From Candidatus Omnitrophota bacterium (lineage in GTDB: Bacteria; Omnitrophota; Gorgyraeia; JABMRG01; JAFGKX01): DNA of 64,000 bases. A model generated the notes under the pieces. It ran no database searches, had not been told where the DNA came from, and worked only from the letters and a program-made list of their open reading frames with translations. A program made the position numbers and the translations under genes. Every line of letters begins with the position of its first letter. The stretch's first letter is position 1. Shown piece by piece: positions 14,993-54,051 of this stretch. The stretch spans positions 9,180 through 73,179 of the forward strand of contig JAZDPX010000013.1 of assembly GCA_043797125.1 (NCBI GenBank). Reading direction: 5' to 3'.

Positions 14993-15865
14993 TTATGCAG
15001 GCAGTTCCTTCTTCAGCGCCTCTATCCTCTTTTCCAGAATAGCCTTAAATCTATTATCTACTGCCTTTTCTTTCATATCGCTATATATCTGTATCGCCTG
15101 CTGCGGCATTTTAAGTGTCTTCACATATATAAACTCCACGGCGGGAAGCTGTTGCTCAAAAGTAGACGGCGAAGGATAATTATTAATTATATCCTGCACC
15201 ATTTTGCCGGCATCCTCAAACTTTGTCAGGCCTACGTATGACTGCACAAGCAAGGTTGCTGCCATATATCCGAGCGCTGTTGCCTTGTTATCTTTTTCTG
15301 TTTTGCTGTAAAATGCCGCAGCTTCTGCATATGACTGCTCTGCGCGCACAGCATCACCTGCTTTTGAATAGTGATTTGCAATATAAAGCGCTGCCTGAAG
15401 TCCTAAAAATGTATTCGCGTATCTATCTTTTAGCGTGGTATATTCCTCTAACGCCTTGCTCCATTTGTCCTGCTTTTCATAGACGGTTGCCTTAAGAAAA
15501 TGCGCCTTGCTTAAAGTGGCAAGATCCCCGCCGGGCTTGCTGATGACAGTATCGATGCCGGTTATGGCTTTATCGTATTTATTTGTGGCTATGTAAAACT
15601 CTATCAGCACCATTTGCGCTGTCTTGGCAACATCTGTCTGCGAAAAGTTCTTTATTACCTTGTTTAAGTCGTTTTCAACCGAGGTAAACAGCTTTGGGGG
15701 TATTACATCCGGGTTTTGTGTTATCTTTTGGATATTTTTGGTTGCGCGGTAAAACAGCTTCTCCGCCTTGTACTCAGGGCTCTGCCCGTATATAGTGAGA
15801 AGTATATATACTATTATTAATATAAGCCCCAGGGAAAATATAATGCCTCTGATATTTAGCTTCAC
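14993..15865 (-). CDS. TPR-repeat protein with N-terminal TM anchor
   Basis: TPR-like helical repeats. A GTG start at 15865 with a GGAGG SD is preferred over track start 15907. Confidence 0.65.
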   Translation of the reverse strand: MKLNIRGIIFSLGLILIIVYILLTIYGQSPEYKAEKLFYRATKNIQKITQNPDVIPPKLFTSVENDLNKVIKNFSQTDVAKTAQMVLIEFYIATNKYDKAITGIDTVISKPGGDLATLSKAHFLKATVYEKQDKWSKALEEYTTLKDRYANTFLGLQAALYIANHYSKAGDAVRAEQSYAEAAAFYSKTEKDNKATALGYMAATLLVQSYVGLTKFEDAGKMVQDIINNYPSPSTFEQQLPAVEFIYVKTLKMPQQAIQIYSDMKEKAVDNRFKAILEKRIEALKKELPA

Positions 15866-15866
15866 T

Positions 15867-16715
15867 TTATTCCTCCGTATCCAGTAAAAACTGCGACGCG
15901 CACACAATTACAAAGCTGTCTATAAATATTGTAAGGACTATTCCTAATAATGTTATGGCAACGGTTATTTCAGGGAATGTCATCTGGGCCAGCTGTGTCG
16001 CGTTGCTTTTTAATAAAGCTATGGGTAAAAACAATAGCGACGGGACTAATATTAAAGCGAATAAACTGAAAAACCTGCGAAAGCCCAGGGAAATGCTTTT
16101 GCCCAATGCTTTTACCAGCGGGCTTTTTTGCATTACCATAATAGGCAGCGCAAGTATAAAAAATGTCTGCAATATGATGTTAGATGCAAATAAAAATAAT
16201 GACGCTCCTGAAAAATACGCCCTGCCTACAAAGCGCGGCGCTTGCTTCGCGGCGAGCCTTGCCAGTTTATTAAAAATAAACAAATCTGCCTTTTTTAATA
16301 AAAACAAAAGGATAATCATCAGAATACCAAAAGATAAAAACGCGCCGCATCTTTTTAAGGCGTTTTTTATAAAGGCGTTGGTCCTTAGCGGAAGGCCCTC
16401 TTTGACGTTCCTGAATATATTAATGGAAACGCCGGTTAAAAATACGGCTATAAAGATGTAAATCAGTATTTGAAGGTAATAAAATATATTAGGCAATATA
16501 ATGACATTGCCGGGATAGTGCAGGGAGGCTTCGCCGTAAAATTTTCTTATAACGGGCCCGGCTATTATTGATAGGGGCTTCCTTGATGAAAAATAAATTA
16601 GTTCAACTGCCAGGCACTCAAAAAAGGCAGTAATAATAAAAGGCAAAAGAATGATAGGCTTTGCCTTCAGCAAATCAAATGCCGATACCCAATTTTTCCT
16701 TAAGTTATAGTTCAT
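15867..16715 (-). CDS. polytopic membrane protein, function unknown
   Basis: 282 aa with at least six hydrophobic segments. Confidence 0.55.
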   Translation of the reverse strand: MNYNLRKNWVSAFDLLKAKPIILLPFIITAFFECLAVELIYFSSRKPLSIIAGPVIRKFYGEASLHYPGNVIILPNIFYYLQILIYIFIAVFLTGVSINIFRNVKEGLPLRTNAFIKNALKRCGAFLSFGILMIILLFLLKKADLFIFNKLARLAAKQAPRFVGRAYFSGASLFLFASNIILQTFFILALPIMVMQKSPLVKALGKSISLGFRRFFSLFALILVPSLLFLPIALLKSNATQLAQMTFPEITVAITLLGIVLTIFIDSFVIVCASQFLLDTEE

Positions 16716-16770
16716 ATTTTATATTATATCACAACTCTGAACTTTTTCTACTTTTTTTAGAAAGTGCTTA

Positions 16771-16849
16771 AAAAAAATGCCATCACTACGGCCTTTTATT
16801 ACAGTGGGAGAACACAAAACTTTTCTTGCAAGAGCCTTGTGCTCTCCCC
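16771..16849 (-). terminator. hairpin (GGGAGAGCACAA/TTGTGTTCTCCC) followed by T8 tract downstream of PEP-CTERM gene
   Basis: A 12-bp stem with one mismatch sits at 16806-16849, and a T8 run on the minus strand at 16771-16778. Confidence 0.4.
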
Positions 16850-16907
16850 CATAAGCATGCTTACTAGGTTCAAGCAAAAGCTCCCACCTTAATTAAAAGA
16901 TAAGGAG

Positions 16908-17480
16908 CTATTTGCTGAACTTATTTCTTACTGCTCCAACACCAATTCCTAAAAGGCCGAGGCCTAATAGAGCCATTGTTGCCGGTTCCGGTACTCCGGG
17001 CGCTTTTGACGTGCCTGTTGCATCTTCGTCGGTTTGATTCCACGCTGCTGCAGTTGTAAAATAAGGCATGTGAACGCTTTTTACTCTGAACTCACCTTGC
17101 GATTCACCTATATCCAGCTGATACCCATAATCTGCATCCCAACCAAAAGTCATAGGATATGGATTCCAATCCCATCCGGTCGGCGTATTTACTTCTATCA
17201 CGCTAACAACCGACGGTTTATCCAGCGCGAAATCTGTAAGATATGTGTCGTAACTAATATTCGTAAGCATATACTCATATCCCCAGTAACCTGTCCCGTA
17301 AACGAAATTGCCGGCTGAATTATCAGAAGGATCCCATATGCCTAAATCCAGCTGTGCATTTCCGTCCACGCAGGTTAGTATCGACGTAAACGTTGAAGTA
17401 AACGCCCATGCGCCTGAAGTAACGCTTAACATCATTGCTGCGAACATCATTATTGTTAATATTCTTTTCACTTGTTTCAC
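16908..17480 (-). CDS. PEP-CTERM sorting-domain secreted protein
   Basis: Signal peptide, and the C-terminus is VPEPATMALLGLGLLGIGVGAVRNKFSK (PEP motif, TM helix, basic tail). Confidence 0.85.
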   Translation of the reverse strand: MKQVKRILTIMMFAAMMLSVTSGAWAFTSTFTSILTCVDGNAQLDLGIWDPSDNSAGNFVYGTGYWGYEYMLTNISYDTYLTDFALDKPSVVSVIEVNTPTGWDWNPYPMTFGWDADYGYQLDIGESQGEFRVKSVHMPYFTTAAAWNQTDEDATGTSKAPGVPEPATMALLGLGLLGIGVGAVRNKFSK

Positions 17481-17600: not shown

Positions 17601-18248
17601 TTATCTTTTCCTTCTGAATAAAAGCCCTGCCGCGCCTAATCCAACTAACGCCAATGTAATAGGCTCGGGATTTGCTTGCGCGTCATGCGACGGCGGAACA
17701 AATTTATTATTAGGATTGCCACTGTTTGAAAAATAATACCCGTATGCGTCTATATGTAAGCTGTTAAGGCCTGAAGATGTTACATTGAATTCTAAGATGG
17801 TTCCGTCGGCTGTGCCGCTGCCGGGCATATCCTGCACCGTTTCTGATCCCAAAGGAATATAGCCAAGCGAATGTTCCGCATAATAAGCCGGATATATCCC
17901 GTGAGGCGGCAGTGAGGATGTAAACGGCTCGCCATCTATGGTGTAAGTTTTGAAAGGCGTACCATGCGCAAACGTAGAATATGTATAATAATCATTCGTG
18001 CCATCAGGATTAACGGTTATTGAACCTGCATTGTCGTCACCGGTCGCAAATGTCAAATATACGCCGTATAAATCCTTGTTAGCCGCGATAAACCAAAGCT
18101 CAAAATTGGTTGACCCAAAATGCCAGCTCTGGTCAGCGTCTACATATGTGCCGCCGGGTATATATACCTGCATATCAGGAACAGCATACGCGTTCGCGGC
18201 GAATAACAACCCCAGCACCATTAGCGCCAATAATAATTTCGTTTTCAT
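17601..18248 (-). CDS. PEP-CTERM sorting-domain secreted protein
   Basis: Signal peptide MKTKLLLALMVLGLLFAANAYA, and the C-terminus is NPEPITLALVGLGAAGLLFRRKR. Confidence 0.85.
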   Translation of the reverse strand: MKTKLLLALMVLGLLFAANAYAVPDMQVYIPGGTYVDADQSWHFGSTNFELWFIAANKDLYGVYLTFATGDDNAGSITVNPDGTNDYYTYSTFAHGTPFKTYTIDGEPFTSSLPPHGIYPAYYAEHSLGYIPLGSETVQDMPGSGTADGTILEFNVTSSGLNSLHIDAYGYYFSNSGNPNNKFVPPSHDAQANPEPITLALVGLGAAGLLFRRKR

Positions 18249-18976
18249 ATTCTCCTCTTTCTGCGCAAAGCGCCGAAACCTAAAGCTCCCAAGCCAAGCA
18301 AAATAACCGACGCCGGCTCGGGCGTTACAGTATAAGAACCGCTCATATAATCATTTGCGCATGTGGCAGCTGCCCAATAAACATTCATGGGCCCGAGCTC
18401 TTCCATAAATAAATTATACGGCACTGAAACATCTCTACGGTTAAAATCATAGCCATTGCTTAGTGTGCCTACCTTAGTAAAGGTAACAGTTCCGTCATAA
18501 AGTTCGCTATCATAATTTGCCGCTGTTACATTATTGTTAAACATACTGCCCGAATACCCGTAATATGATTTCCATTGATACGACGTGTTCCACTGGGTAG
18601 TGCCGGAGTAAAGATTGCCTTCACTAAATTGCGGATTACCCGAAGCTGTTGGTGTGCCATGATCAGTCATGGCTATGGCAAAATCTTTCGTACCTGTATT
18701 TCCCGGCACGGTAATTTTTATATCACCACAGAAAAGTTGCCCAATTCCGCTTTCCGGAAAACCGCTGTATAATTGAAACGTAAGCATTGAGCCATTTTGT
18801 GCGATATCTATTCCATATCCTTCATAACGTGGATCGCCAAGGCGCTCATATGTGCTGCTTGTGCTATAGCTCCAATAATCCTCGATGGTAAATTCAGCAG
18901 GCGGCGTAACTACGCAAAACGCAGTTTTGGCAGCCAGCAAAATCATCATACAAACCAGTACAATTATCATCTTCAT
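18245..18976 (-). CDS. PEP-CTERM sorting-domain secreted protein
   Basis: C-terminus TPEPASVILLGLGALGFGALRRKRRI. The signal peptide begins at the internal MKMIIVLV (ATG 18976); the 16-aa N-terminal extension in the track is a translated heptamer repeat. Confidence 0.8.
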   Translation of the reverse strand: MKMIIVLVCMMILLAAKTAFCVVTPPAEFTIEDYWSYSTSSTYERLGDPRYEGYGIDIAQNGSMLTFQLYSGFPESGIGQLFCGDIKITVPGNTGTKDFAIAMTDHGTPTASGNPQFSEGNLYSGTTQWNTSYQWKSYYGYSGSMFNNNVTAANYDSELYDGTVTFTKVGTLSNGYDFNRRDVSVPYNLFMEELGPMNVYWAAATCANDYMSGSYTVTPEPASVILLGLGALGFGALRRKRRI

Positions 18977-19024
18977 ATTCTTTTTCCCCTGCCCACAGCT
19001 CAAGGCCCACAGCCCACAGCTCAA

Positions 19025-19798
19025 TTATCTTGCTCCTCTTCCCGCCGCTACAACAAAAACTGTCCTGAACAATATCCTCACATCCGTCATCAGGCACATT
19101 CTTTTTATATATAAAAGGTCATACTTTATTTTCTTCCTTACGTCCTGTATGGTCTCATCGTATTTGTGCCATACTTGCGCAAGACCGGTTATGCCCGGCT
19201 TTACCGCGTATCTTTTTCTGTAATCAGAAATTTCCTTGCTAAGCGTTTTTACAAAAACAGGGCGTTCGGGCCTTGGGCCTACAATACTCATCTCGCCGCT
19301 TAAAACATTAAAAAGCTGCGGTATCTCATCGATATGCGCTTTTCTTATTATCTTGCCGAATTTAATAAGGCGGGGGTCATTCTCTCTTGCCCAGATGGGG
19401 CCTGTTTCTTTTTCAGCGTCAAGTTTCATCGTGCGGAATTTGTATATATCAAAAAGCTTGCCACTTCTGCCCATTCTCTCTTGTTTATAAAAAACCGGAC
19501 CCGGCGAAACAATTTTAATCAGCATTGCCGTTAAAAGCATAATAGGCGCTGTAACAACTAAGCCTACAGATGCTACTGTTACATCAAAGCATCTTTTAAA
19601 TTCCTCGAAGCGCTTTCTGGCAAACCTGATCACCCAGCCAATAATGCCTGTTGATATCAAAGCAAGACTGCTTGGTTCAGGAGCTATTACGCGTCCGGTG
19701 CCGTTTTGGGCATAAACAAGCTCTATCATGTAGAACGCGAATAGGCCTAAAAATAAAAACAGAATTGCTAAATTAAGGTGGGCTTTAATTCTTTTCAT
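19025..19798 (-). CDS. polyprenyl-phosphate sugar phosphotransferase (bacterial sugar transferase, EpsB/WbaP C-domain type) with PEP-CTERM-like N-terminal anchor
   Basis: Catalytic-domain motifs (SPGPVFYKQERMGRSGKLFDIYKFRTM, IVGPRPERP). The N-terminal 63 aa are a signal-like helix followed by APEPSSLALISTGIIGWVIRFARKR. Confidence 0.8.
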   Translation of the reverse strand: MKRIKAHLNLAILFLFLGLFAFYMIELVYAQNGTGRVIAPEPSSLALISTGIIGWVIRFARKRFEEFKRCFDVTVASVGLVVTAPIMLLTAMLIKIVSPGPVFYKQERMGRSGKLFDIYKFRTMKLDAEKETGPIWARENDPRLIKFGKIIRKAHIDEIPQLFNVLSGEMSIVGPRPERPVFVKTLSKEISDYRKRYAVKPGITGLAQVWHKYDETIQDVRKKIKYDLLYIKRMCLMTDVRILFRTVFVVAAGRGAR

Positions 19799-19996: not shown

Positions 19997-20013
19997 AAGC
20001 ATATTCCGTGCCA
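19997..20013 (-). promoter_or_regulatory. sigma-54 (-24/-12) promoter upstream of sugar-transferase/PEP-CTERM operon
   Basis: The minus strand reads TGGCACGGAATATGCTT, with GG and GC at the canonical 12-nt spacing. Confidence 0.6.
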
Positions 20014-20307: not shown

Positions 20308-20949
20308 ATGAACTATAACGAATTCAAAAAAGAAACACAAAATCAGCCGCTTGTTTTAAGCAGCGATCTTTTAGCTCTTAAAGAAAGCAAACAGGCCATC
20401 CGCAACCAGCTCGAACGCTGGCGCAAGAAAAAGCTGCTTATCAGGCTTAAGCGCGGCGTATTCCTGCTTAATCAAAGCGATAGGAAACTAAACATTTCCA
20501 GGGCTTATATTGCCAATCAGTTATATAGTCCGTCATACGTAAGCGTGGAATATGCCCTTAATTATTACGGCTTGATTCCTGAGCGAACAAATGATTTAAC
20601 CAGTGTCAGCGCCAAAAAAACTTTGCGTATTGTAAACGAAACGGGAAACTTCATCTACCAGCATATTAAGCCGCAGGCTTTCAGGGGATTTAAAGCGCAA
20701 AAAGACGACGCCGGGCTTGCCTTTTTTATTGCTGTGCCTGAAAAGGCAATTGTTGATTTTATTTATTTAAACCTTAACAAGTTTAAGGTTCAGGATAAAA
20801 GTATCTTTGAAGAATCCTATCGTTTTCAAAATTTAGAGGTTTTAAAAACGAAAATCATTATGGAATTCGCCAAGGGTTTTAATAGTGATAAATTATTGCG
20901 CGTGTGTAAACTTTTTTGTGAATTCGCGAAGAAAGAAGGTGCAAAATGA
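20308..20949 (+). CDS. AbiEi-family antitoxin/transcriptional regulator (type IV TA)
   Basis: N-terminal wHTH region and AbiEi-like layout. The gene is paired with the downstream nucleotidyltransferase by a 4-nt overlap. Confidence 0.6.
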   Translation: MNYNEFKKETQNQPLVLSSDLLALKESKQAIRNQLERWRKKKLLIRLKRGVFLLNQSDRKLNISRAYIANQLYSPSYVSVEYALNYYGLIPERTNDLTSVSAKKTLRIVNETGNFIYQHIKPQAFRGFKAQKDDAGLAFFIAVPEKAIVDFIYLNLNKFKVQDKSIFEESYRFQNLEVLKTKIIMEFAKGFNSDKLLRVCKLFCEFAKKEGAK

Positions 20950-25949: not shown

Positions 25950-25955
25950 ATTCTT

Positions 25956-38323: not shown

Positions 38324-38334
38324 TTATAGTACCT

Positions 38335-43826: not shown

Positions 43827-43834
43827 TTTCGCTC

Positions 43835-46939: not shown

Positions 46940-46943
46940 TGGG

Positions 46944-47988: not shown

Positions 47989-48261
47989 CTATTTTCGTTT
48001 TCTAAGCTTGAACATTCCCAACCCTGCTAAACCTACGCCGACTAGCGCAAGAGTTGCCGGCTCGGGATTGTGCGGCGCTCTGCTTGAGCCGCTGCCAGAG
48101 TCGTATGAGCTGCTGCTTGAGTTTTCGGCAAACATAGTGCCTTGCGCTCCCGATGATGATCCGTCGGAAAAGCCGGCGACTTCACTTGCCTTCTCGTTGC
48201 AGCCAGTTAGCGCCAGAGTCGCTGCTATGCAGCAGGCTAGCACTACTAATTTATATCCCAT
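47989..48261 (-). CDS. small PEP-CTERM lipoprotein
   Basis: Lipobox LALTGC, a Ser/Gly-rich middle, C-terminus NPEPATLALVGVGLAGLGMFKLRKRK, and a GAGGAGG SD. Confidence 0.75.
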   Translation of the reverse strand: MGYKLVVLACCIAATLALTGCNEKASEVAGFSDGSSSGAQGTMFAENSSSSSYDSGSGSSRAPHNPEPATLALVGVGLAGLGMFKLRKRK

Positions 48262-48275: not shown

Positions 48276-49070
48276 TTATTTATACTCACTATATTCCTGA
48301 ATGTATCTATATAAATACTGCGGCAGGTGATATTCCACATTCGTCATTACGATACCGAGAATTTTTGCTCCTGCCTGATGTAACCTGCTCTGTGCGTGCT
48401 GTATTGTGCCATGCTGGGTCCTTGCTGCCTGGATAACTAAAATTGCTCCGTCAACCATAGGCGCAAGTATACACGCGTCTGTTAAAGGCACAACAGGCGG
48501 TGAATCTATAAAAATATAATCAAACCTGCTTTCAAGCGAATTAAGGAGCGTTTGCATTCTCTTTGAGCCTAAGAGCTCCGACGGCTTATTTGATACGCTG
48601 CCTGAAACCATTATTGTAAGATTATCAATCCCCGGGGTGACAAATGCGGAATCTTCATTTATTTTGCCTTCCAAGACTTCAGAAAGCCCTGGGGCAGGAT
48701 CAAGACCTAAATATTTCGCTACTCTTCCCTTTCGCATATCAGCGTCTATTAAAAGTATGGATTTATTATTTAAGTCCTGCGCCATTGCTATTGCAAGGTT
48801 TATGGATGTTATGGTCTTGCCTTCCGAGTTTACCGAGCTTGTGATAAGAAACTTTTTATAGCCCCTTTTGCTTTTAAGCGATTGAATGTTGGTGCGCAAT
48901 ATTTTATATTGCTCGCCGACAGGAGATGTGGGGTCATGAAAAGATACCACGTGCTCGTCGATTTTTGTATCTTCGACGCGCTTTACCACATACTGGATCT
49001 CGGGTTTCTTCAGTATTCTTGTAATGCGCTCATCGCTTACTTTCTTTAATGCTTCGGTGATTCGACCCAT
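48276..49070 (-). CDS. BY-kinase-like P-loop ATPase (EpsG / chain-length-determinant tyrosine autokinase type)
   Basis: MinD/ParA-like fold (SSVNSEGKT; LLIDADMRKG) and a Tyr-rich C-tail (YHLPQYLYRYIQEYSEY). Confidence 0.7.
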   Translation of the reverse strand: MGRITEALKKVSDERITRILKKPEIQYVVKRVEDTKIDEHVVSFHDPTSPVGEQYKILRTNIQSLKSKRGYKKFLITSSVNSEGKTITSINLAIAMAQDLNNKSILLIDADMRKGRVAKYLGLDPAPGLSEVLEGKINEDSAFVTPGIDNLTIMVSGSVSNKPSELLGSKRMQTLLNSLESRFDYIFIDSPPVVPLTDACILAPMVDGAILVIQAARTQHGTIQHAQSRLHQAGAKILGIVMTNVEYHLPQYLYRYIQEYSEYK

Positions 49071-49105
49071 TTTAGCTCCTTTGGATTCCAGCTTATCTAG
49101 CCGGT

Positions 49106-49159
49106 CCGTAGCGGAGCCTTAAGGCTCCGCTACGGTTATGGATATACTGTTGTGGATAA
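49106..49159. repeat. repeat B palindrome (CCG-extended) plus TGTGGATAAC tail
   Basis: Palindrome at 49108-49133 and TGTGGATAA at 49151-49159, in the spacer between two genes of the export operon. Confidence 0.9.
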
Positions 49160-49160
49160 C

Positions 49161-50024
49161 TTAATTTACTCCCACTACGATTACTTTTTCGCTTGGTTTA
49201 TGAAGAGGCATGTATGTGGTCCTGTGCATTAGGTCTTCTATTGCCTCAACTGCTATTTCCCTTGTTATTTGTTTTACTTCATACAAAAGCCCGCTTATTA
49301 ATGTGATATGGCAGGCAAGGTTTATAAGCCGGGGAATACCGCCTGAATATCTGTATATTTCATCGATTGCTTCTTTTGTGAATATGTCGACGTTTTCATT
49401 GCCTGCGGTCTTTAGCCTGTGTTGTATGTAGCGCTCTGTTTCGCTCTCGTTTAACGACGATAAATGATAATAGAAAACAATCCTCTGGCTGAATTGCGCG
49501 AGTTTATGATGCGCCAGCTTAGCGCGTAATTCCGGCTGGCCTATCAATATAATCTGGATAAGCTTTTCTGTCTCTGTCTCCATGTTAGAGAGCATCCTTA
49601 TCTCTTCAAGCACAGACGCGGTAAGATTCTGCGCTTCATCTATGATGAGCACGACATTTACCTCTTTTGCCGCCTGCTCTAATAAAAATTTGTTGAGCGC
49701 TGATAAAAGGCGCGGCTTTGAGGTTGCGTGGTATTCCACCCCAAAATCATCGAGTATAGTCTCGAGCAGCTCCTTTTTGCTTAAATGCGTATTAAGAATT
49801 AAAGCAATTTTTGTTGACGGATCCAAGCGGCTTAGCAGGGCTCTTGAGGTTGTTGTTTTTCCAGAGCCGATGTCGCCTGTAATAACAGCGAAGCCGTTTC
49901 TTTCGCTTATAGCGAGTAGGAGCCGATTAAGCGCTTCCTCGTGTTTTGAGCTTGCGAAGAAAAATTTTGAATCCGGTGTCAGGTTAAAAGGCCTGTCGGT
50001 AAAACCGTAGAATTTCTCGTACAT
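49161..50024 (-). CDS. ExeA/GspA-like AAA ATPase (PEP-CTERM-locus secretion ATPase type)
   Basis: Walker A GDIGSGKTT and Walker B VLIIDEAQ. Confidence 0.7.
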   Translation of the reverse strand: MYEKFYGFTDRPFNLTPDSKFFFASSKHEEALNRLLLAISERNGFAVITGDIGSGKTTTSRALLSRLDPSTKIALILNTHLSKKELLETILDDFGVEYHATSKPRLLSALNKFLLEQAAKEVNVVLIIDEAQNLTASVLEEIRMLSNMETETEKLIQIILIGQPELRAKLAHHKLAQFSQRIVFYYHLSSLNESETERYIQHRLKTAGNENVDIFTKEAIDEIYRYSGGIPRLINLACHITLISGLLYEVKQITREIAVEAIEDLMHRTTYMPLHKPSEKVIVVGVN

Positions 50025-50063
50025 GTTATTGTCTCCTTATTAAAATATTAAATTCTGCCAGCC

Positions 50064-50097
50064 AACCGTAGCGGAGCCTTAAGGCTCCGCTACGGTT
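50064..50097. repeat. repeat B palindrome extended to 34 bp (AACCG...CGGTT)
   Basis: Core at 50068-50093. The tail is degenerate (GTTGTAGACAAC). Confidence 0.9.
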
Positions 50098-50118
50098 GTA
50101 GACAACTCGTAATTATAT

Positions 50119-51423
50119 TTACCCCAATACAATATTGAATATTATAACAACCAACAAAACCACGCCTGTTATAATAGACAGGCCTGTTATTTTCATCCTG
50201 CGCATTCTTTGGGCGTTTAAGTCGGCGACTGTGATTATCTTCGGTATCGCGCCTAATATCGGCAAATCAAGCGTTTGCTTTGCCTGGTCAATTCCTAAAA
50301 ATGAATGGTCTAATAATTCAGCTATAAACACCATGCCCGCGCCTGCGCATATGCCCAGGAATATTGACATAAATAAAACAAGCGGCTTATTCGGCTTTAC
50401 AGGTTTTAACGGCAGTCTTGCAGGATCAAGAATTGTATATTTTGTGCCTTCTTTTGATGATTCAAGCCGCTGGGTGATTTTTGCTGTTTCTAAACGCTGA
50501 AGCAGGGTATCGTATAATCTTTGGTTTACGTTTGCGTCCCTGGCCGCGACATTGTCAATTCTTTCAAGAAGCAGGAGTTTGTATAGCTTGTCGTTTGTAG
50601 CTTCGGAGAACATTGTCCTGTTTGCGCCGGTGCTTGAGCCGTCAAGGCCGGTCGCGGTGAGCTCTTCCTTCATTTTTCCTAAATCATCCCTTAGGCCTGA
50701 TAATTCGCTGTCTGAACTTGCTATGGTTGATGTATTAATATTGTATATACCTTTTTCTAATTCGCCTTTAGCCTGCTCTATTTTCTTTTTTAGCTCCACA
50801 ACCACAGGATGTTTCTCTGTAGAATCAACGCGCAGTTTTTCAAGCTGGTCCTGCATTGCCGATATTTCGGATTGCTTAAGTTTTTTCTGATAAAGTTCGA
50901 GTTGGTCATTTATAAAATTAATGGCGTTGTCGGTTTCCTGCGTCTGCTGGCGCAGGTTTTCAGCGATGAATATGTCTGTTATTGTCTTTACTATATTCTG
51001 CGATTCCAGCGCGTCCTTGCCGTCGTAGGAAATAGTTACGAGGCTATCGCCGCGTAGTTTCACTATGATATTCTGGCGCAAGTTCTTAACTAAATTTTCA
51101 AACTGCTCCTGGCTTCTTACGTCCTTTGCAAGGTTAAGCTTTGTTATAAGCTGATTTATCCTGTCCCAGCCAAGTATCTGCTCGCGCAATACAGCCAATC
51201 GCTGAGCTGTGCTGGTTGATACTGCCAAACCCTGCACAAGCGGATTTATTATCCTGCCTTCTTCAACAAGAATAAGTGTCGATGCCCTGTATGCCTTAGG
51301 AAGGGCGTTGGCAGCTATTACGCCGAGCGCAATTGCTATCACTGTCGGGATAATAACAAGCCATTTCCTTCTGAAGAAGATTTTCAGATAATCTAAAGGT
51401 TTTTTCTCTGATCCTGTATACAT
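50119..51423 (-). CDS. polysaccharide chain-length determinant (Wzz/GumC-like)
   Basis: N- and C-terminal TM helices flank a long coiled-coil periplasmic domain. Confidence 0.7.
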   Translation of the reverse strand: MYTGSEKKPLDYLKIFFRRKWLVIIPTVIAIALGVIAANALPKAYRASTLILVEEGRIINPLVQGLAVSTSTAQRLAVLREQILGWDRINQLITKLNLAKDVRSQEQFENLVKNLRQNIIVKLRGDSLVTISYDGKDALESQNIVKTITDIFIAENLRQQTQETDNAINFINDQLELYQKKLKQSEISAMQDQLEKLRVDSTEKHPVVVELKKKIEQAKGELEKGIYNINTSTIASSDSELSGLRDDLGKMKEELTATGLDGSSTGANRTMFSEATNDKLYKLLLLERIDNVAARDANVNQRLYDTLLQRLETAKITQRLESSKEGTKYTILDPARLPLKPVKPNKPLVLFMSIFLGICAGAGMVFIAELLDHSFLGIDQAKQTLDLPILGAIPKIITVADLNAQRMRRMKITGLSIITGVVLLVVIIFNIVLG

Positions 51424-51490: not shown

Positions 51491-52501
51491 CTACATCGCT
51501 AATGCTGCGCCGCTTGCTGCAGCGCCCGCTGCTTCGCTTGTGGCATTGGTCACCGGAGATATTACGCGGATTATCTTTGCCATTGCTGTTGCCGGTATAT
51601 ACAGCACATCGCCCGGCTTCATATCGATATTTTCTTTAAGGTCGCCTTCGTATAGTAATTTATACACGTTTACGTAAGTGTAATTATTCCTGCCGGTGTT
51701 ATTAGGCGTAATCAGTCGGCATTTTCTCATGGCTGCGGAATATGTGGGAAGCCCTGACTGCACAAGGGCCTCTCTTATAGTAATAGTATTTCCTCTCATA
51801 TAATATTTGCCCGGGTTTGCTGCCTCGCCTACTACGTAGAAAACCTTGCTTAGATAGGCAACTATTGTTACATCGACTTCCGGCGCGATAAGAAAATCCG
51901 AGAGGATTTCAGTCAGCCTTTTATTAAGCTGCAATTTTGTAAGGCCACTAACGGCAATATCCCCTACAAACTTGTATTCAATCTTTCCCTCTGAATTAAC
52001 TGTATACTGGCCGCTGAATTCGGGATGCCTTCTTACCTCAATTGAAACCACGTCATTGGGCCCGAGGGTGTATTTGACCTCTTCCATAATATCTACGACT
52101 GTTGGCGGTGTGCCTGCAACAGGAAGAGCGCTAAGGTTTATATCGACAGATTTCGGGGTCTCAACCACGCCTTGAGTCTTGGCAAAATTTGTCTGGGCGA
52201 AAGATGTACCAGCGCATAAGAAATACGCTGCAAGCGCAACAGACAACGCAAAGATGATGATAGATAAAGTCTTGGCGTAATTTGCTGCTGCAGCTACGGT
52301 TTCCTCATATTCATAGGAGCTTTCGTAGAATTTCCTGATTTCTTCTACCTCATCCTTTTGATAAAACCTCCAGCCGCGCCAGTCTCTTTTTGATTTCTTT
52401 ATTTTGCCGGCCTTCTCCCACCTCATAATGGTGCGGGGAGTCACGCCAATGTATTTTGCCGCATCTGTGATGCTTAATCTATTGCTTATTGCCATAGCCA
52501 T
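51491..52501 (-). CDS. Wza-like polysaccharide export protein with in-frame N-terminal MerR/excisionase-type HTH
   Basis: Poly_export/SLBB-like body (PGDVLYIPA) after a signal or anchor helix. The first 60 aa are an HTH (LSITDAAKYIGVTPRTIMRWEKAG). Confidence 0.7.
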   Translation of the reverse strand: MAMAISNRLSITDAAKYIGVTPRTIMRWEKAGKIKKSKRDWRGWRFYQKDEVEEIRKFYESSYEYEETVAAAANYAKTLSIIIFALSVALAAYFLCAGTSFAQTNFAKTQGVVETPKSVDINLSALPVAGTPPTVVDIMEEVKYTLGPNDVVSIEVRRHPEFSGQYTVNSEGKIEYKFVGDIAVSGLTKLQLNKRLTEILSDFLIAPEVDVTIVAYLSKVFYVVGEAANPGKYYMRGNTITIREALVQSGLPTYSAAMRKCRLITPNNTGRNNYTYVNVYKLLYEGDLKENIDMKPGDVLYIPATAMAKIIRVISPVTNATSEAAGAAASGAALAM

Positions 52502-52581
52502 TTTCCATTCCTCCTGTATTATTATGGGTTATTATGGTTGCTGTCTATGAAATACCATGACAGGTATGCACTTACATATAT

Positions 52582-52598
52582 AAGCATTATCCGTGCCA
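52582..52598 (-). promoter_or_regulatory. sigma-54 (-24/-12) promoter upstream of the Wza/Wzz/kinase export operon
   Basis: The minus strand reads TGGCACGGATAATGCTT. It shares the core TATATAAGCAT-T-ATCCGTGCCA with the copy at 19997. Confidence 0.6.
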
Positions 52599-52662
52599 AA
52601 CTTAAGTTTTTGCGAAAAAATTATATAGTGATGTAACTTGTTGTAGATAAAAGAGTTGTAAG

Positions 52663-52698
52663 CACACGTAGCGGAGGCTTAAGCCTCCGCTACGTGTG
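52663..52698. repeat. repeat B variant, 36-bp perfect palindrome (centre GGCTTAAGCC)
   Basis: CACACGTAGCGGAGGCTTAAGCCTCCGCTACGTGTG. Confidence 0.9.
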
Positions 52699-52764
52699 CT
52701 CTTGCGTTTCCTATGTTGAATTATATAGACACGTGTATCTAAAACTGCTAAAATATATCCCCTT

Positions 52765-54051
52765 ATGCAACACAAACTAGCACACCACCATAAAATGCTT
52801 CAGAAAATGGCTCTTACGCCTCAAATGAAGCAATCTATCCAGCTTTTGGGTATGTCTACAAAGGACTTAAATGAATATGTTGATGCTGCGTTAGAAAAAA
52901 ATCCATTTTTAAAAAAAGAGATTACAGCGCCAAGGACTGCCAAGGCTTCGGATGATGACTACGATTACACTGCAAACATACGCCAGGAAGAAAATCCCCG
53001 CATGAACTTTATTTCCCAGCTTGAAATAATGGATATTGAAACAGGCTTGTTGGACATTGCTAAATACCTTATATATGAAATGGATGATAATGGTTATATT
53101 AATATTGATTTAGAAGATGCTGCGCAGGAACTTGCTGCTGATACGACTGATATTGAGGCAGCGCTTGCCATTGTGCAGTCAATGGAGCCGGCAGGCATTG
53201 GCGCAAGAAATATTCAGGAGTGTTTGAGCCTGCAGCTTAAAAGAAGGGGCAAGGAAGATTCTGTTGAGTACAGGATAGTGAATGGGTTCTTAAATGAGCT
53301 TACTAGAAATGATGCTGAAAAAATAGCGAAACAACTAAAAATAAGCAGCCAACAGGCTGAAACCGCGATTAAGACTATAAAGCTGCTTAACCCTCGGCCA
53401 ACGAGCACTCTTTTTAGTAAGGAAGCTCATGCTGTAACGCCTGATTTAATTGCAGAGGTTGGGGGCAAGAAATTGCGCCTGTGGCTGAACAGGCAATGGC
53501 TGCCTAATATTACATTCTACAATCCTTATGAGGACGAACCTGAAATAACCGAGGATGCAACAGCAAAAAAATTCATTACGGAGAATAAGCAGGCTGCCAA
53601 AGGCCTGATAGACGGCTTAAAGAGGCGCGAGGAGACTTTGCTTAAGGTAGCGCAATATCTGCTGGGTTTTCAGCTGGATAGCTTCATAGACGAGAGCCGG
53701 CACATAAAAAGCCTCGCGATAAAAGATGTGGCTTCTGCCTTAAAAATGCATACTACCACAATAAGCAGGACCGTTTCCCACAAATATGTGCAGATAAATA
53801 ATCAGACCATGCCGTTAAAGGGCCTGCTAAGCGGGGAAATCAAGAATAAAGACGGGCAAGTTACATCAAAGGCATCTATCAAAACTAAAATTAACGCGCT
53901 TGTTAAAGCTGAGGACAAAACGCATCCTTTAAGCGATAAACAAATAAAAGAATCTCTCGAGAAAGAAGGCATCTCCATTAACCGGCGCACCGTAGCAAAA
54001 TACCGCGACTCGCTGCGCCTTTTGCCTGCGCATTTAAGAAGAAAATCGTAG
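52765..54051 (+). CDS. rpoN: RNA polymerase sigma-54 factor
   Basis: Region I (MALTPQMKQSIQLLGMSTKDL) and a C-terminal RpoN box (NRRTVAKYRDSL). Confidence 0.9.
   Translation: MQHKLAHHHKMLQKMALTPQMKQSIQLLGMSTKDLNEYVDAALEKNPFLKKEITAPRTAKASDDDYDYTANIRQEENPRMNFISQLEIMDIETGLLDIAKYLIYEMDDNGYINIDLEDAAQELAADTTDIEAALAIVQSMEPAGIGARNIQECLSLQLKRRGKEDSVEYRIVNGFLNELTRNDAEKIAKQLKISSQQAETAIKTIKLLNPRPTSTLFSKEAHAVTPDLIAEVGGKKLRLWLNRQWLPNITFYNPYEDEPEITEDATAKKFITENKQAAKGLIDGLKRREETLLKVAQYLLGFQLDSFIDESRHIKSLAIKDVASALKMHTTTISRTVSHKYVQINNQTMPLKGLLSGEIKNKDGQVTSKASIKTKINALVKAEDKTHPLSDKQIKESLEKEGISINRRTVAKYRDSLRLLPAHLRRKS

What the first reader, a model, noticed from the sequence alone, without database searches (positions are those of the whole stretch)
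14993..54051. Complete PEP-CTERM/exosortase exopolysaccharide locus next to rpoN
The locus holds an exosortase (DPCSG motif) with EpsI, four PEP-CTERM proteins, an EpsB-type phosphoglycosyl transferase, and about ten glycosyltransferases. It also has the locus-specific FemAB-like, AsnB-like and deacetylase genes, a Wzy/ligase-like protein, and the Wzm/Wzt, Wza, Wzz, BY-kinase and ExeA-ATPase export set. Two sigma-54 promoters and the sigma-54 gene itself sit within it. This matches the known PEP-CTERM/EpsH gene neighbourhood of Haft et al. but in a very compact form, with rpoN and an NtrC-type activator inside the same 40 kb.
Basis: partly seen in the sequence, partly recalled or inferred. Interest (0 to 1): 0.55.

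Follow-up and report, generated by a model that had tools for sequence, protein, structure and literature searches.

The report
Omnitrophota exosortase sugar-coat locus, unusual fusions
This is a real, sigma-54-controlled gene cluster for a sugar coat and surface-protein sorting in a Candidatus Omnitrophota bacterium; it belongs to an unnamed lineage-specific type in which the enzyme that starts sugar-chain synthesis carries the tag normally read by the protein-sorting enzyme.

Summary
The gene inventory is confirmed almost item by item. It includes an exosortase (DPCSG), EpsI, four PEP-CTERM proteins, a priming phosphoglycosyl transferase (PGT) and 8 glycosyltransferase genes (9 domains). Also present are AsnB-like, GNAT/FemAB-like and deacetylase functions, Wzy_C, Wzm/Wzt, OPX/PCP/BY-kinase/ATPase, two sigma-54 promoters, rpoN and an NtrC-type activator.

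The window is from a Candidatus Omnitrophota MAG. Every XrtA-specific model is the best hit yet scores below its cut-off, or gives no hit. The exosortase passes only the generic models.

Three conserved departures stand out.
- The 257-aa PGT is a signal peptide, about 10 residues, a PEP-CTERM module that passes TIGR02595 (P-E invariant in 87 homologues), then a complete PglC-like core. Relatives carry a full passenger domain before the same module.
- The OPX (Wza-like) protein carries a highly conserved N-terminal MerR-type HTH and a membrane helix.
- rpoN lies beside the export operon or the regulators in 5/5 loci, and the promoter motif (TGGCAY-N5-WTGCTTA) recurs at 9/9 sites.

The core extends left to 12176. 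This is a new variant of a known kind. Physical coupling of PGT and exosortase is inferred, not shown.

The parts
12176..13201 (-). PocR-GAF sensor-type protein; left end of the conserved core
   Evidence: Pfam PocR scores 79 and GAF_2 scores 46.8. The same gene follows the activator in L002, L004 and L092 and precedes it in L001.
13182..14609 (-). NtrC-type sigma-54 activator (REC-AAA+-HTH)
   Evidence: Best matches are AtoC/NtrC. PrsR (TIGR02915) scores 351.7, below its cut-off of 502.6. The position is conserved in L001, L002, L004 and L092.
14557..14919 (-). Stand-alone DHp-like protein without the histidine (remnant of a histidine kinase)
   Evidence: 30% identity over 76 aa (E 3e-14) to the HisKA region of the GAF-HisKA-HATPase kinase at the same position in L092. 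The H-box reads VVHEINNPL in L092 and IINQLCSPI here. Homologues are present in L002 and L004.
14993..15907 (-). Short TPR protein (about 290-300 aa)
   Evidence: Only weak TPR, YbgF and BamD matches, and no PrsT hit. It is conserved next to the membrane protein in L001, L002, L004, L085, L087 and L092.
15867..16715 (-). Conserved polytopic membrane protein with no family model
   Evidence: No Pfam or NCBIfam family. Identity is 45-51% to the neighbours in L001, L002 and L004, 29% (E 2e-36) in L085 and 25% (E 2e-22) in the Elusimicrobiota locus L087.
16908..17480 (-). PEP-CTERM protein (tail VPEP-TM-RNK)
   Evidence: TIGR02595 scores 22.1 against a cut-off of 16. The sequence is shown.
17601..18248 (-). 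Choice-of-anchor N PEP-CTERM protein
   Evidence: NF038141 scores 101.4 against 40, and TIGR02595 scores 21.5 against 16.
18245..19024 (-). PEP-CTERM protein (likely start at 18976)
   Evidence: TIGR02595 scores 26.9 against 16. One search gives the likely start.
19025..19798 (-). PEP::PGT: signal peptide (cleavage site VYA|Q), 8-10-residue linker, APEP, membrane helix, RFARKRF, then a complete PglC-like phosphoglycosyl transferase
   Evidence: TIGR03025 scores 297 against 295.6. Residues 1-69 score 20.6 on TIGR02595 against a cut-off of 16. Residues 67-251 align to the whole of PglC 8e37 (E 1.3e-33). P40 and E41 are invariant in 87 homologues. The AF2 model gives the matching helix layout.
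19998..20013 (-). Sigma-54-type promoter of the PGT/PEP-CTERM operon (TGGCACGGAATATGCT)
   Evidence: The same motif lies upstream of the PEP::PGT gene in L001, L002, L004 and L088.
20308..21755 (+). AbiEi/AbiEii toxin-antitoxin insert between EpsI and the PGT promoter
   Evidence: AbiEi and AbiEii, Pfam 93.9. Relatives carry other small mobile-type genes at this position.
21901..22542 (-). EpsI
   Evidence: TIGR02914 scores 79.5 against 42.8. The start overlaps the exosortase stop by 8 nt.
22535..23374 (-). Exosortase of an unnamed Omnitrophota clade
   Evidence: The generic models pass and all 16 subtype models fail. At least 120 homologues share 57-68% identity, and all named ones are Omnitrophota. 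PCSGLRS (C183), R228 and H249 are invariant.
23371..24496 (-). HEPN / MntA-like nucleotidyltransferase toxin-antitoxin pair (insert)
   Evidence: HEPN scores 44.3; MntA-like match.
24735..25970 (-). GT4 glycosyltransferase (stp1-like)
   Evidence: TIGR03087 scores 287.5, below its cut-off of 316.7.
26005..28134 (-). GH123-like glycoside hydrolase
   Evidence: Pfam GH123_cat scores 84.2 and GH123_N scores 53. A homologue lies near the exosortase in L002.
28282..33557 (-). Double GT4 (994 aa), radical SAM/SPASM protein, GT4
   Evidence: A double GT4 is also present in L002.
33523..36170 (-). Wzy_C (polymerase/ligase-like) protein and Acetyltransf_6/FemAB-like acyltransferase
   Evidence: Wzy_C scores 73.8. 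Acetyltransf_6 scores 78.4. FemAB_like scores 19.2, below its cut-off of 27. TIGR03019 and TIGR03097 give no hit.
36167..42577 (-). GT4+polysaccharide deacetylase fusion, GT4, two GT2, GT4 (stp1-like)
42579..44611 (-). Wzt (ABC ATPase with Wzt_C domain) and Wzm (ABC-2 permease)
44640..47948 (-). AsnB-like amidotransferase, mannose-6-P isomerase cupin domain, TviC-like NAD epimerase
   Evidence: TIGR01536 scores 328.7 against 267. TIGR03108 scores 343.7, below its cut-off of 816.9. Searches cover the other two genes.
47989..48261 (-). 90-aa lipoprotein (lipobox LTGC) with a Ser/Gly-rich linker and PEP-CTERM; last gene of the export operon
   Evidence: TIGR02595 scores 23.7 against 16. A small ORF follows the kinase in L089, L090 and L091; the L089 and L090 proteins pass TIGR02595.
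48276..51423 (-). BY-kinase, AAA_22 (ExeA-like) ATPase, PCP/Wzz
   Evidence: TIGR01007 scores 172 against 108. TIGR03015 scores 306.5 against 324.5. TIGR03007 scores 264 against 278.9.
51491..52501 (-). HTH::OPX: MerR-type HTH (aa 9-57), membrane helix with an AxA-like site, then Poly_export and SLBB
   Evidence: Pfam MerR scores 36.2, MerR_1 36.4, Poly_export 71.6 and SLBB_2 33. The same architecture appears in 115 of the 120 best homologues. The HTH is the best-conserved segment. A strong Shine-Dalgarno sequence precedes the ATG at 52501.
52542..52598 (-). Sigma-54-type promoter (52598-52583, TGGCACGGATAATGCT) and conserved 5'-UTR element (52562-52542)
   Evidence: Both elements are conserved upstream of HTH::OPX in L089, L090 and L091.
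52765..54051 (+). rpoN (sigma-54), divergent from the export operon
   Evidence: TIGR02395 scores 351.6 against 277.4. rpoN lies upstream of the export operon on the opposite strand in L089, L090 (one gene between) and L091, and next to the regulators in L092.

Best explanation
The region is the exosortase/PEP-CTERM plus exopolysaccharide system of a Candidatus Omnitrophota bacterium. It belongs to a lineage-specific type that is related to the XrtA system but distinct from it.

Proposed working, with each step marked as shown or inferred.

1. Regulation. Sigma-54 is encoded next door. Together with an NtrC-type activator it fires two conserved promoters. The activator is partnered by a PocR-GAF protein and a histidine-less DHp remnant instead of PrsK. 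One promoter drives the operon HTH::OPX, PCP, ATPase, BY-kinase and mini PEP-CTERM lipoprotein. The other drives the operon PEP::PGT, three PEP-CTERM proteins, membrane protein and TPR protein. The motifs and their conservation are shown. Their activity is inferred.

2. Glycan assembly. The PGT primes undecaprenyl phosphate. GT4 and GT2 enzymes extend the glycan, and amidotransferase, deacetylase, acyltransferase and radical SAM enzymes modify it. Wzm/Wzt flips or exports it, since no Wzx is present in this strain. A Wzy_C enzyme acts in the periplasm. PCP, kinase and OPX move the glycan outward. All of this is inferred from family membership.

3. Protein sorting. The exosortase (Cys183, Arg228, His249) together with EpsI processes the PEP-CTERM proteins. 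This is inferred.

4. The distinctive step. The PGT is anchored by a genuine PEP-CTERM sorting module. A signal peptide places its PE(P) motif at the periplasmic face. I propose that this module docks the priming enzyme to the exosortase, or is cleaved by it. In the long-passenger relatives, cleavage would release a sorted protein and leave the PGT as the retained 'leaving group'. Either way, glycan initiation would be coupled to protein sorting.
For: Composition and HMM membership:
- establish the gene content.

Taxon and clade:
- One search finds a 100% identical NCBI Omnitrophota protein on a 143-kb contig.
- It also finds at least 120 homologues at 57-68% identity, all with generic names.

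Conserved core order:
- The order is exosortase, EpsI, PEP::PGT, PEP-CTERM genes, membrane protein, TPR, regulators.
- It is seen in L001, L002, L004, L085, L088, L092 and L093.
- The exosortases in these loci are only 33-68% identical to the window's.

PEP module in the PGT:
- The N-termini of four PGTs reach the TIGR02595 cut-off, scoring 20.6, 18.1, 18.3 and 16.2 against 16.
- Of the 120 best homologues, 100 match a strict PEP-helix-basic pattern; nearly all the others shown carry PE[AV] variants or a Tyr in the helix.
- Conservation by segment is the pattern of a sorting signal. The values are: signal-peptide core 0.46, SPase site 0.82, linker 0.29, xPEP 0.90, basic cluster 0.86 and catalytic domain 0.83.
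- P40 and E41 are invariant.
- 0 of 80 PGTs from other phyla have such a module.
- P0251 consists of choice-of-anchor N (53.8 against 40), PEP-CTERM (21.8 against 16) and PGT. Its passenger is homologous to the window's separate choice-of-anchor N protein (E 1e-9).
- P0274, from Elusimicrobiota, has a 170-aa passenger, then PEP, then PGT.
- The AF2 topology is consistent with this layout.
- The module lies outside the complete PglC core.

Promoters:
- The motif is found at 9 of 9 sites across loci.

rpoN linkage:
- It is seen in the window and in 4 of 4 relatives checked.

Precedent:
- RpoN dependence of PEP-CTERM genes is established in Aquincola (PMC9850573) and was predicted by Haft 2006 (PMC1569441).
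Against: - No biochemical data exist for any exosortase substrate here. No expression data were available.
- Cleavage or docking of the PGT by the exosortase is pure inference. In the short form a cleavage would remove only about 10 residues, which has no obvious purpose.
- A few relatives have lost the PEP motif (P0250, P0252, P0255, P0260, P0265, P0273). The module is therefore not obligatory for this PGT clade.
- The helix of the PGT module (ALISTGxxGW) has diverged from the tails of the neighbouring PEP-CTERM proteins (LLGLGL).
- The signal peptide was judged by eye, without a predictor.
- Only a dozen loci were examined. Both large contig scans under-delivered.
- The Elusimicrobiota locus has no exosortase within 10 kb.
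Confidence: 0.72

Rival explanations
1. It is simply a canonical XrtA/PEP-CTERM system (Haft 2006) in a new host. The sub-threshold scores reflect only phylogenetic distance and carry no functional difference.
For: For most components the best-scoring specific model is the XrtA-system model (TIGR03109, 03013, 03087/03088, 03108, 03015, 03007, 03018, 03027). Several miss only narrowly: 03015 scores 306.5 against 324.5, and 03007 scores 264 against 278.9. Sigma-54 control and an NtrC-type activator are shared with XrtA systems.
Against: - The exosortase scores equally on XrtA, XrtW and XrtD (178, 178 and 176) and below all three cut-offs.
- PrsK and PrsT are absent, and PrsR is far below its cut-off.
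- TIGR03019, 03006 and 03097 give no hit.
- The PGT is a small monotopic enzyme with a PEP module, not the polytopic EpsB_2 type.
- The OPX protein carries an HTH.
- PEP-CTERM genes are operonic behind one promoter rather than single-gene units each with its own sigma-54 site (PMC1569441).
Confidence: 0.15
2. The PEP-like segment of the PGT is only a topogenic or membrane-anchor element that happens to resemble PEP-CTERM. It has no interaction with the exosortase.
For: - TIGR02595 is a short 24-position model and the scores are close to the cut-off (16.2-20.6).
- Some clade members lack PEP.
- Small PGTs need only their re-entrant helix for membrane association (PglC). An added helix could therefore serve oligomerisation or localisation.
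Against: - A plain anchor does not explain invariant P-E next to a fully variable linker.
- It does not explain the conserved signal-peptidase site that is needed to put PE(P) on the periplasmic side.
- It does not explain constant adjacency to exosortase/EpsI and PEP-CTERM genes across exosortases of 33-100% identity.
- It does not explain relatives in which a bona fide PEP-CTERM passenger (choice-of-anchor N) sits in front of the same module.
- In L085 the module is nearly identical to the neighbouring PEP-CTERM tails. It reads PEPGTLLLFGTGLLG against PEPGSMLLFGTGLIG.
Confidence: 0.2
3. The locus is a mosaic of two independent systems placed side by side by chance. One would be a capsule or O-antigen-type ABC-transporter cluster (low-GC island, 31-46 kb). 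The other would be a separate exosortase cassette.
For: - GC content drops from 42-45% to 33-37% between about 31 and 46 kb.
- The central cassette differs between relatives: Wzx and a pyruvyl transferase in L090 and L091, against Wzm/Wzt here.
- REP-like elements and TA modules mark junctions.
Against: - The flanking modules keep their position around the variable cassette: the export operon with rpoN on one side, and exosortase, EpsI, PGT, PEP-CTERM genes and regulators on the other.
- Exosortase, PGT and OPX homologues share contigs in many metagenomes. Eighteen 'longest contig' lengths above 5 kb are shared between the exosortase and PGT hit lists, by my own comparison of the tables.
- The export operon itself ends with a PEP-CTERM lipoprotein.
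- Both modules use the same extended sigma-54 promoter consensus.
- A variable central cassette between conserved flanks is the normal organisation of one polysaccharide locus.
Confidence: 0.08

Closest known systems
XrtA (exosortase A)/PEP-CTERM system with PrsK-PrsR-PrsT (Haft et al. 2006, PMC1569441; NCBIfam TIGR03109 and associated models)
   Same: - An exosortase with Cys/Arg/His, plus EpsI.
- Several PEP-CTERM proteins embedded in about 40 kb of EPS genes: sugar transferase, GT4s, deacetylase, AsnB-like amidotransferase, chain-length determinant, tyrosine kinase, ExeA-like ATPase and a short OPX protein.
- Sigma-54 promoters and an NtrC-type activator.
   Different: - All XrtA-specific models score below cut-off or give no hit.
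- There is no PrsK or PrsT. Instead there is a PocR-GAF protein, a His-less DHp remnant and a short TPR protein.
- PEP-CTERM genes are operonic.
- The PGT is a small monotopic enzyme carrying a PEP-CTERM module.
- The OPX protein carries a MerR-type HTH.
- rpoN is syntenic with the locus.
- A conserved 280-290-aa membrane protein without any family model is part of the core.
RpoN-dependent PEP-CTERM/floc-formation systems of Zoogloea and Aquincola (PMC9850573, PMC9012009)
   Same: PEP-CTERM genes are under sigma-54 control and are linked to bound exopolysaccharide. A TPR protein is required.
   Different: Those are betaproteobacterial XrtA systems with PrsT and a long EpsB_2-type PGT. No PGT-PEP fusion is known there; the Zoogloea, Thauera and Rhodocyclaceae PGTs in the control set lack the module.
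Small monotopic phosphoglycosyl transferases (PglC, PDB 8e37/8g1n; PF02397)
   Same: Residues 67-251 align to the whole of PglC (E 1.3e-33). This includes the re-entrant helix region and the Asp-Glu dyad (IDEIPQL).
   Different: A 66-residue N-terminal extension, made of a signal peptide, a PEP-CTERM motif, a transmembrane helix and a basic cluster. It is not mentioned in the 2024 proteome-wide monoPGT survey (PMC11626204).
Canonical PEP-CTERM sorting domain (TIGR02595/PF07589)
   Same: The PEP motif, a hydrophobic helix of about 15 residues, a basic cluster and an N-terminal signal peptide.
   Different: Haft 2006 states that the domain is 'virtually without exception' at the C-terminus and regarded long tails as probably non-functional. 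Here about 195 residues of a conserved enzyme follow it, in hundreds of sequences.
ToxR/CadC-type membrane-bound one-component regulators (resemblance recalled from knowledge, not tested)
   Same: The HTH::OPX protein has a cytoplasmic DNA-binding domain, one membrane helix and a periplasmic domain.
   Different: The HTH is MerR-type and the periplasmic part is a polysaccharide-export (Poly_export/SLBB) module. An AxA-like site after the helix could instead separate the two parts.

Membership tests
Exosortase family (TIGR02602 / TIGR04178 / PF09721) | HMM score at or above the curated cut-off | tested here: met
   TIGR02602 scores 168.1 against 105.55, and TIGR04178 scores 70.2 against 23. PF09721 is recorded for all homologues.
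Exosortase family (TIGR02602 / TIGR04178 / PF09721) | Conserved Cys, Arg and His proposed as the catalytic residues | tested here: met
   The ADPCSGLRS motif is present. C183, R228 and H249 are invariant in 120 clade members.
Exosortase family (TIGR02602 / TIGR04178 / PF09721) | Multiple PEP-CTERM substrates in the same genome | tested here: met
   Four PEP-CTERM proteins and one internal module lie in the locus itself, all at or above the TIGR02595 cut-off.
Exosortase family (TIGR02602 / TIGR04178 / PF09721) | Cleavage or transpeptidation of PEP-CTERM proteins | not testable with these tools
   This needs biochemistry or genetics. No exosortase structure was found in the PDB by sequence.
XrtA system sensu NCBIfam/TIGRFAMs | Exosortase A model TIGR03109 at or above 208 bits | tested here: not met
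   The score is 177.9. XrtW scores 178 against 425, XrtD 176 against 400, XrtV 140.8 against 313 and XrtB 126.3 against 275. The L085 relative scores 171.3.
XrtA system sensu NCBIfam/TIGRFAMs | Locus-specific partners above cut-off (TIGR03013, 03087, 03088, 04063, 03108, 03015, 03007, 03018, 03027) | tested here: not met
   All score below their cut-offs. TIGR03013 scores 272.9 against 393.4. TIGR03087 scores 287.5 against 316.7. TIGR03088 scores 354.6 against 409. TIGR03108 scores 343.7 against 816.9. TIGR03015 scores 306.5 against 324.5. TIGR03007 scores 264 against 278.9. TIGR03018 scores 156.2 against 230.7. TIGR03027 scores 96.6 against 180.
XrtA system sensu NCBIfam/TIGRFAMs | FemAB-like (TIGR03019), deacetylase (TIGR03006) and O-antigen-ligase-like (TIGR03097) members | tested here: not met
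   No hit at E<=1. Only the generic Pfam families match: Acetyltransf_6, Polysacc_deac_1 and Wzy_C.
XrtA system sensu NCBIfam/TIGRFAMs | PrsK/PrsR/PrsT regulatory trio | tested here: not met
   PrsR scores 351.7 against 502.6. No PrsT hit was found for the TPR protein. No histidine kinase was found among the ORFs scanned across the window, only a His-less DHp remnant.
XrtA system sensu NCBIfam/TIGRFAMs | EpsI present | tested here: met
   TIGR02914 scores 79.5 against 42.8. The type-specific EpsI models (V-type and B-type) score below cut-off.
PEP-CTERM sorting domain (TIGR02595) | HMM score at or above 16 bits | tested here: met
   The four proteins score 22.1, 21.5, 26.9 and 23.7. The PGT module scores 20.6, and 18.1, 18.3 and 16.2 in three relatives.
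PEP-CTERM sorting domain (TIGR02595) | Position at the extreme C-terminus | tested here: not met
   This is met for the four PEP-CTERM proteins. It is not met for the PGT module, which occupies residues 39-64 of 257 and is followed by the catalytic domain.
PEP-CTERM sorting domain (TIGR02595) | N-terminal signal peptide | tested here: inconclusive
   All five have a basic n-region, a hydrophobic core and an AxA-like or lipobox site by inspection. Y29 and A30 are at least 90% conserved in the PGT family. No signal-peptide predictor was available.
Small monotopic PGT (PglC-like, PF02397) | Bac_transf domain; alignment to the whole PglC core including the Asp-Glu dyad | tested here: met
   TIGR03025 scores 297 against 295.6. 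PglC 8e37 residues 10-185 align with query residues 67-251, E 1.3e-33. D157 and E158 are invariant.
OPX (Wza-type) polysaccharide export proteins | Poly_export plus SLBB domains | tested here: met
   PF02563 scores 71.6 and PF22461 scores 33. The XrtA-specific TIGR03027 model scores 96.6 against 180 and is not met.
OPX (Wza-type) polysaccharide export proteins | Lipoprotein or secreted N-terminus with no cytoplasmic domain | tested here: not met
   A MerR-type HTH (aa 9-57) precedes the hydrophobic segment. This is conserved in about 115 of 120 homologues.
Sigma-54 (RpoN) | TIGR02395 at or above cut-off; AID, CBD and DBD domains | tested here: met
   The score is 351.6 against 277.35. The three Pfam domains are recorded for the syntenic relatives.

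The most novel reading that the evidence does not exclude
The priming phosphoglycosyl transferase is itself a client of the exosortase. Its PEP-CTERM module is bound or cleaved at the periplasmic face. The enzyme that starts the glycan would then be the retained 'leaving group' of the sorting reaction. In the long forms, one translation product would yield both a sorted surface protein and a membrane-held PGT. This would physically tie exosortase transpeptidation to lipid-linked glycan synthesis. It would point to the nascent glycan or its carrier as the long-sought acceptor of exosortases. A second unexplored element is an OPX export protein with a cytoplasmic MerR-type DNA-binding domain. 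Such a protein could report export status directly to the promoter.
Probability: 0.35. Interest if true: 0.8.

Novelty: new variant of a known kind. Interest (0 to 1): 0.6.

Why it matters
Exosortases were predicted in 2006, and as far as I know (general knowledge, not checked here) their acceptor substrate and their mechanistic link to exopolysaccharide are still unknown. A conserved PEP-CTERM sorting signal placed in front of the glycan-priming enzyme is a natural 'fusion experiment'. It occurs in hundreds of Omnitrophota sequences and, with full passenger domains, in relatives including an Elusimicrobiota bacterium. It links the two processes and gives a simple testable substrate with one tagged protein and one Cys mutant.

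The work also defines an unnamed exosortase type with its own accessory set: the membrane protein, the short TPR protein, HTH::OPX, the mini PEP-CTERM lipoprotein and the rpoN synteny. Current annotation leaves these generic.

No paper in the searched library links Omnitrophota with exosortase or PEP-CTERM.

Tried and rejected
- Exact-sequence look-ups of the window's exosortase (GTG start) and of RpoN found nothing. The ATG-start exosortase was then found by homology search.
I used the 80 loci only as a negative control for the PEP module (0/80).
- The metagenome scan with the single exosortase used over-specific patterns and gave one locus, L088.
- A third sigma-54-like site at 48142-48127 was dropped. 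It lies inside the newly recognised 90-aa PEP-CTERM gene.
- A possible exosortase-EpsI frameshift fusion was considered, because the XrtD and XrtW profiles cover both ORFs. It was rejected: EpsI has its own ATG overlapping the exosortase stop, and it is a separate gene in all relatives.
- Literature searches for a PEP-CTERM/PGT fusion, and for exosortases in Omnitrophota, found nothing. The 2021 monoPGT network paper was not available.
- No exosortase structure exists in the PDB by sequence.
- The motif TGTCATRG as a shared operator is only suggestive. It occurs 4 times in the window, 3 of them in regulatory gaps of this locus.

Full report
**What is there**

Almost all genes are on the minus strand.

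- The exosortase (22535-23374) carries ADPCSGLRS. It passes the generic exosortase models: TIGR02602 scores 168.1 against 105.6, and TIGR04178 scores 70.2 against 23.
- EpsI passes TIGR02914 (79.5 against 42.8). Its real start, at 22542, overlaps the exosortase stop by 8 nt.
- Three PEP-CTERM proteins follow the PGT: 16908-17480, 17601-18248 (also choice-of-anchor N, 101.4 against 40) and 18245-19024.
- A fourth PEP-CTERM protein is a 90-aa lipoprotein with a Ser/Gly-rich linker at 47989-48261, found only after lowering the ORF size filter.
- There are eight GT genes with nine GT domains. One is a double GT4 and one is a GT4-deacetylase fusion.
- An AsnB-like amidotransferase, an Acetyltransf_6/FemAB-like protein, a Wzy_C protein and Wzm/Wzt (with Wzt_C) are present.
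- So are a short OPX protein, a PCP, an AAA_22 ATPase, a BY-kinase and rpoN (TIGR02395 scores 351.6 against 277).
- The flanks are unrelated. On the left are an Mbh/Mrp-type hydrogenase complex, oxidoreductases and Rex. On the right are Ogg, TrxB, ZupT and rubrerythrin.

**Origin and classification**

The exosortase is 100% identical to an NCBI protein from a Candidatus Omnitrophota MAG, on a 143-kb contig. At least 120 cluster representatives share 57-68% identity with it. Every one that carries a taxon name is Omnitrophota/Omnitrophica, and NCBI names them only 'exosortase/archaeosortase family protein'.

This agrees with the scores. XrtA, XrtW and XrtD tie at about 177 bits, all below their cut-offs. 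Every XrtA-locus-specific model is the best specific hit but scores sub-threshold. TIGR03019, TIGR03006, TIGR03097 and PrsT give nothing even at E<=1.

The broader claim, 'PEP-CTERM/exosortase EPS locus', stands. The clade keeps PCSGLRS (C183), R228 and H249 invariant.

**Conserved core in relatives**

The contigs carrying relatives show a conserved order: GTs, exosortase, EpsI, a variable insert, a short PGT, 2-5 PEP-CTERM genes, a 280-290-aa membrane protein with no family model, a TPR protein of about 290 aa, and then the regulators. The regulators are a small protein or a GAF-HisKA kinase, a sigma-54 activator and a PocR-GAF protein. This order is seen in L001, L002, L004, L088 and L092, with a rearranged version in L085.

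The window's 120-aa protein (14557-14919) is homologous to the HisKA helix pair of the L092 kinase (E 3e-14) but has lost the histidine. There is no PrsK equivalent here.

**The PGT carries a PEP-CTERM module**

The 257-aa PGT aligns over residues 67-251 to the whole of PglC (E 1.3e-33). The extra 66 residues consist of:
- a basic n-region and a hydrophobic core ending in VYA|Q;
- a variable linker of 8-10 residues;
- APEP;
- a hydrophobic helix;
- RFARKRF.

This segment reaches the TIGR02595 cut-off in the window (20.6) and in three relatives (18.1, 18.3 and 16.2, against 16). These scores are in the same range as the genuine PEP-CTERM proteins next door.

Of the 120 best homologues (62-78% identity), 100 match a strict PEP-helix-basic pattern. 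Nearly all the rest have PE[AV] or a Tyr in the helix. Several already carry precomputed Pfam PF07589+PF02397.

In an 87-sequence alignment P40 and E41 are invariant. Conservation by segment is what a sorting signal predicts rather than a mere anchor. The values are: signal-peptide core 0.46, SPase site 0.82, linker 0.29, xPEP 0.90, helix 0.63, basic cluster 0.86 and catalytic domain 0.83.

AlphaFold2 (pLDDT 77.7) gives helix 2-28, coil 29-41, helix 42-62, a long helix 64-97 and then the catalytic fold. As a control, none of 80 PGTs from other phyla has such a module in front of the core.

An exhaustive HMMER search of 1.84 billion representatives found about ten further 50%-identity clusters with the same junction.
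- P0251 consists of a signal peptide, a choice-of-anchor N domain (53.8 against 40), PEP-CTERM (21.8 against 16) and the PGT.
- Its passenger is homologous to the window's separate choice-of-anchor N protein (E 1e-9).
- Its locus has an exosortase, EpsI, two PEP-CTERM genes with almost the same tail, the membrane protein and the TPR protein.
- P0274, from an Elusimicrobiota bacterium, has a 170-aa passenger, then PEP, then the PGT. It sits next to a PEP-CTERM gene, the membrane protein, a TPR protein and OPX/PCP genes.
- P0242 and P0256 sit 2-6 kb downstream of exosortase/EpsI pairs that are only 48% and 33% identical to the window's.

Haft et al. wrote that PEP-CTERM is 'virtually without exception' C-terminal and that long tails are probably non-functional (PMC1569441). 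I found no paper describing a PEP-CTERM/PGT fusion, and none on exosortases in Omnitrophota.

**Interpretation of the module**

The signal peptide is needed to put the PE(P) motif on the periplasmic side, where the exosortase active site is thought to lie. The basic cluster and the PGT stay cytoplasmic.

I infer that the module is recognised by the exosortase. It could act as a docking element, which is most plausible for the short form. It could also be a cleavage site, which in the long forms would release a sorted passenger and leave the PGT in the membrane. Neither possibility has been shown.

**The export operon and rpoN**

The OPX protein (51491-52501) starts with a MerR-type HTH (aa 9-57; MerR 36.2 against 28.2), followed by a hydrophobic segment ending in SFA|Q, then Poly_export and SLBB. 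A strong AGGAGG precedes its ATG.

The same architecture appears in 115 of the 120 best homologues, nearly all named ones Omnitrophota. The HTH is the most conserved part (TPRTIMRWEKaGKI..RDWRGWRFY, at least 90%).

In L089, L090 and L091 the operon is HTH::OPX, PCP, AAA_22 ATPase, BY-kinase and a small ORF, shown to be a PEP-CTERM lipoprotein in L089 and L090. rpoN lies upstream of it on the opposite strand, with one gene between in L090. In L092 rpoN abuts the regulators.

**Promoters**

The two sigma-54-type sites (20013-19998 and 52598-52583) are the only intergenic matches with at most one mismatch inside the locus. About 2.2 such matches are expected in the whole 64 kb.

The same extended motif, TGGCAY-N5-WTGCTTA, precedes the PEP::PGT gene in L001, L002, L004 and L088. 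It precedes HTH::OPX in L089, L090 and L091. Including the window, that is 9 of 9 sites.

A conserved element, TGTCATGGTATTTCATAGACA, follows the OPX promoter. Related half-sites lie about 100 nt upstream of the PGT promoter. This may be an operator or an enhancer, but that is speculative.

Unlike proteobacterial XrtA systems, the individual PEP-CTERM genes have no promoter of their own here.

**Variable parts**

GC content falls to 33-37% between 31 and 46 kb. The central GT cassette differs among relatives: Wzx and a pyruvyl transferase in L090 and L091, against Wzm/Wzt and no Wzx here. This is as expected for a serotype-like variable region between conserved flanks.

**Verdict**

The locus is a new variant of a known kind: an Omnitrophota-type exosortase system whose priming PGT carries a PEP-CTERM signal and whose OPX protein carries an HTH. 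Functional coupling between the PGT and the exosortase is the most interesting reading. It remains an inference (probability about 0.35).

Noticed in passing
window 51491-52501 (-): The Wza-like OPX protein has an N-terminal MerR-type HTH and a membrane helix in front of Poly_export/SLBB. The fusion is conserved in about 115 of the 120 best homologues, nearly all named ones Omnitrophota. The HTH is the most conserved segment. It may be a membrane-tethered regulator, or the two parts may be separated at the AxA-like site.
   Followed up: partly
window 14967-47983 (8 copies: 14967, 19944, 20208, 21851, 21900, 24753, 26026, 47963): A short palindromic REP-like element, YCCCGC-N4-GCGGGR-ATGAC, occurs eight times (9 matches, two of them overlapping; 0.04 expected). 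All copies lie inside the EPS locus at gene ends or in intergenic gaps, and none lies elsewhere in the 64 kb. It also explains odd ORF tails such as ...SRLRGNDN at the end of the GH123-like gene.
   Followed up: partly
window 20308-21755 (+) and 23371-24496 (-); L001 9170-9991; L002 11509-13068; L085 1820-2173; L092 8275-9270: The gaps around exosortase-EpsI are a recurrent landing site for small selfish or defence-type genes. Examples are AbiEi/AbiEii and HEPN/MntA-like pairs here, and AbiEii, 23S-rRNA-IVP and ORF6N genes in relatives.
   Followed up: partly
window 14557-14919 (-): A stand-alone DHp (HisKA-like) protein that has lost the phospho-accepting histidine. It sits where a relative (L092) has a full GAF-HisKA-HATPase kinase. 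The adjacent response regulator may therefore be controlled without phosphotransfer.
   Followed up: partly
window 52662-52699: A perfect 38-bp palindrome (GCACACGTAGCGGAGGCTTAAGCCTCCGCTACGTGTGC) lies between the divergent rpoN and OPX genes, about 65 nt upstream of the sigma-54 promoter. L089 has a different 26-bp palindrome at the same place.
   Followed up: no
window 52542-52562, 20114-20136, 14916-14923: The motif TGTCATRG occurs only 4 times in the window. Three of these are on the coding strand in regulatory gaps of this locus: the OPX 5'-UTR, about 100 nt upstream of the PGT promoter, and at the start of the DHp gene. It is a candidate operator or enhancer half-site.
   Followed up: partly
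window 47989-48261 (-): A 90-aa protein with a lipobox (LTGC), a Ser/Gly-rich low-complexity linker and PEP-CTERM, so it would be anchored at both ends. It is conserved as the last gene of the export operon. It could be a small glycosylation or sorting substrate.
   Followed up: partly
window 31000-46000: A low-GC island (33-37% against 42-45%) covers the GT/Wzy_C/Wzm-Wzt cassette. This strain has an ABC transporter and no Wzx, whereas relatives L090 and L091 have Wzx and a pyruvyl transferase.
   Followed up: partly
window 26005-28134 (-) and 31268-32428 (-); L001 8120-8860, L002 9256-9999: A GH123-like glycoside hydrolase and a radical SAM/SPASM enzyme sit inside the locus. Relatives have a papain-like C1 peptidase immediately upstream of the exosortase, which this window lacks.
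   Followed up: no
L091 8411-9686: rpoN is split into two ORFs (AID+CBD, and DBD) in this relative. This could be a frameshift, a pseudogene or an assembly error.
   Followed up: no
window 1-12110: The left flank encodes an Mbh/Mrp-type membrane-bound hydrogenase-like complex (Proton_antipo_M, Complex1_49kDa/NiFeSe, NADHdh, MbhD/E), FeS/FAD oxidoreductases and a Rex-type repressor. These are unrelated to the finding.
   Followed up: no
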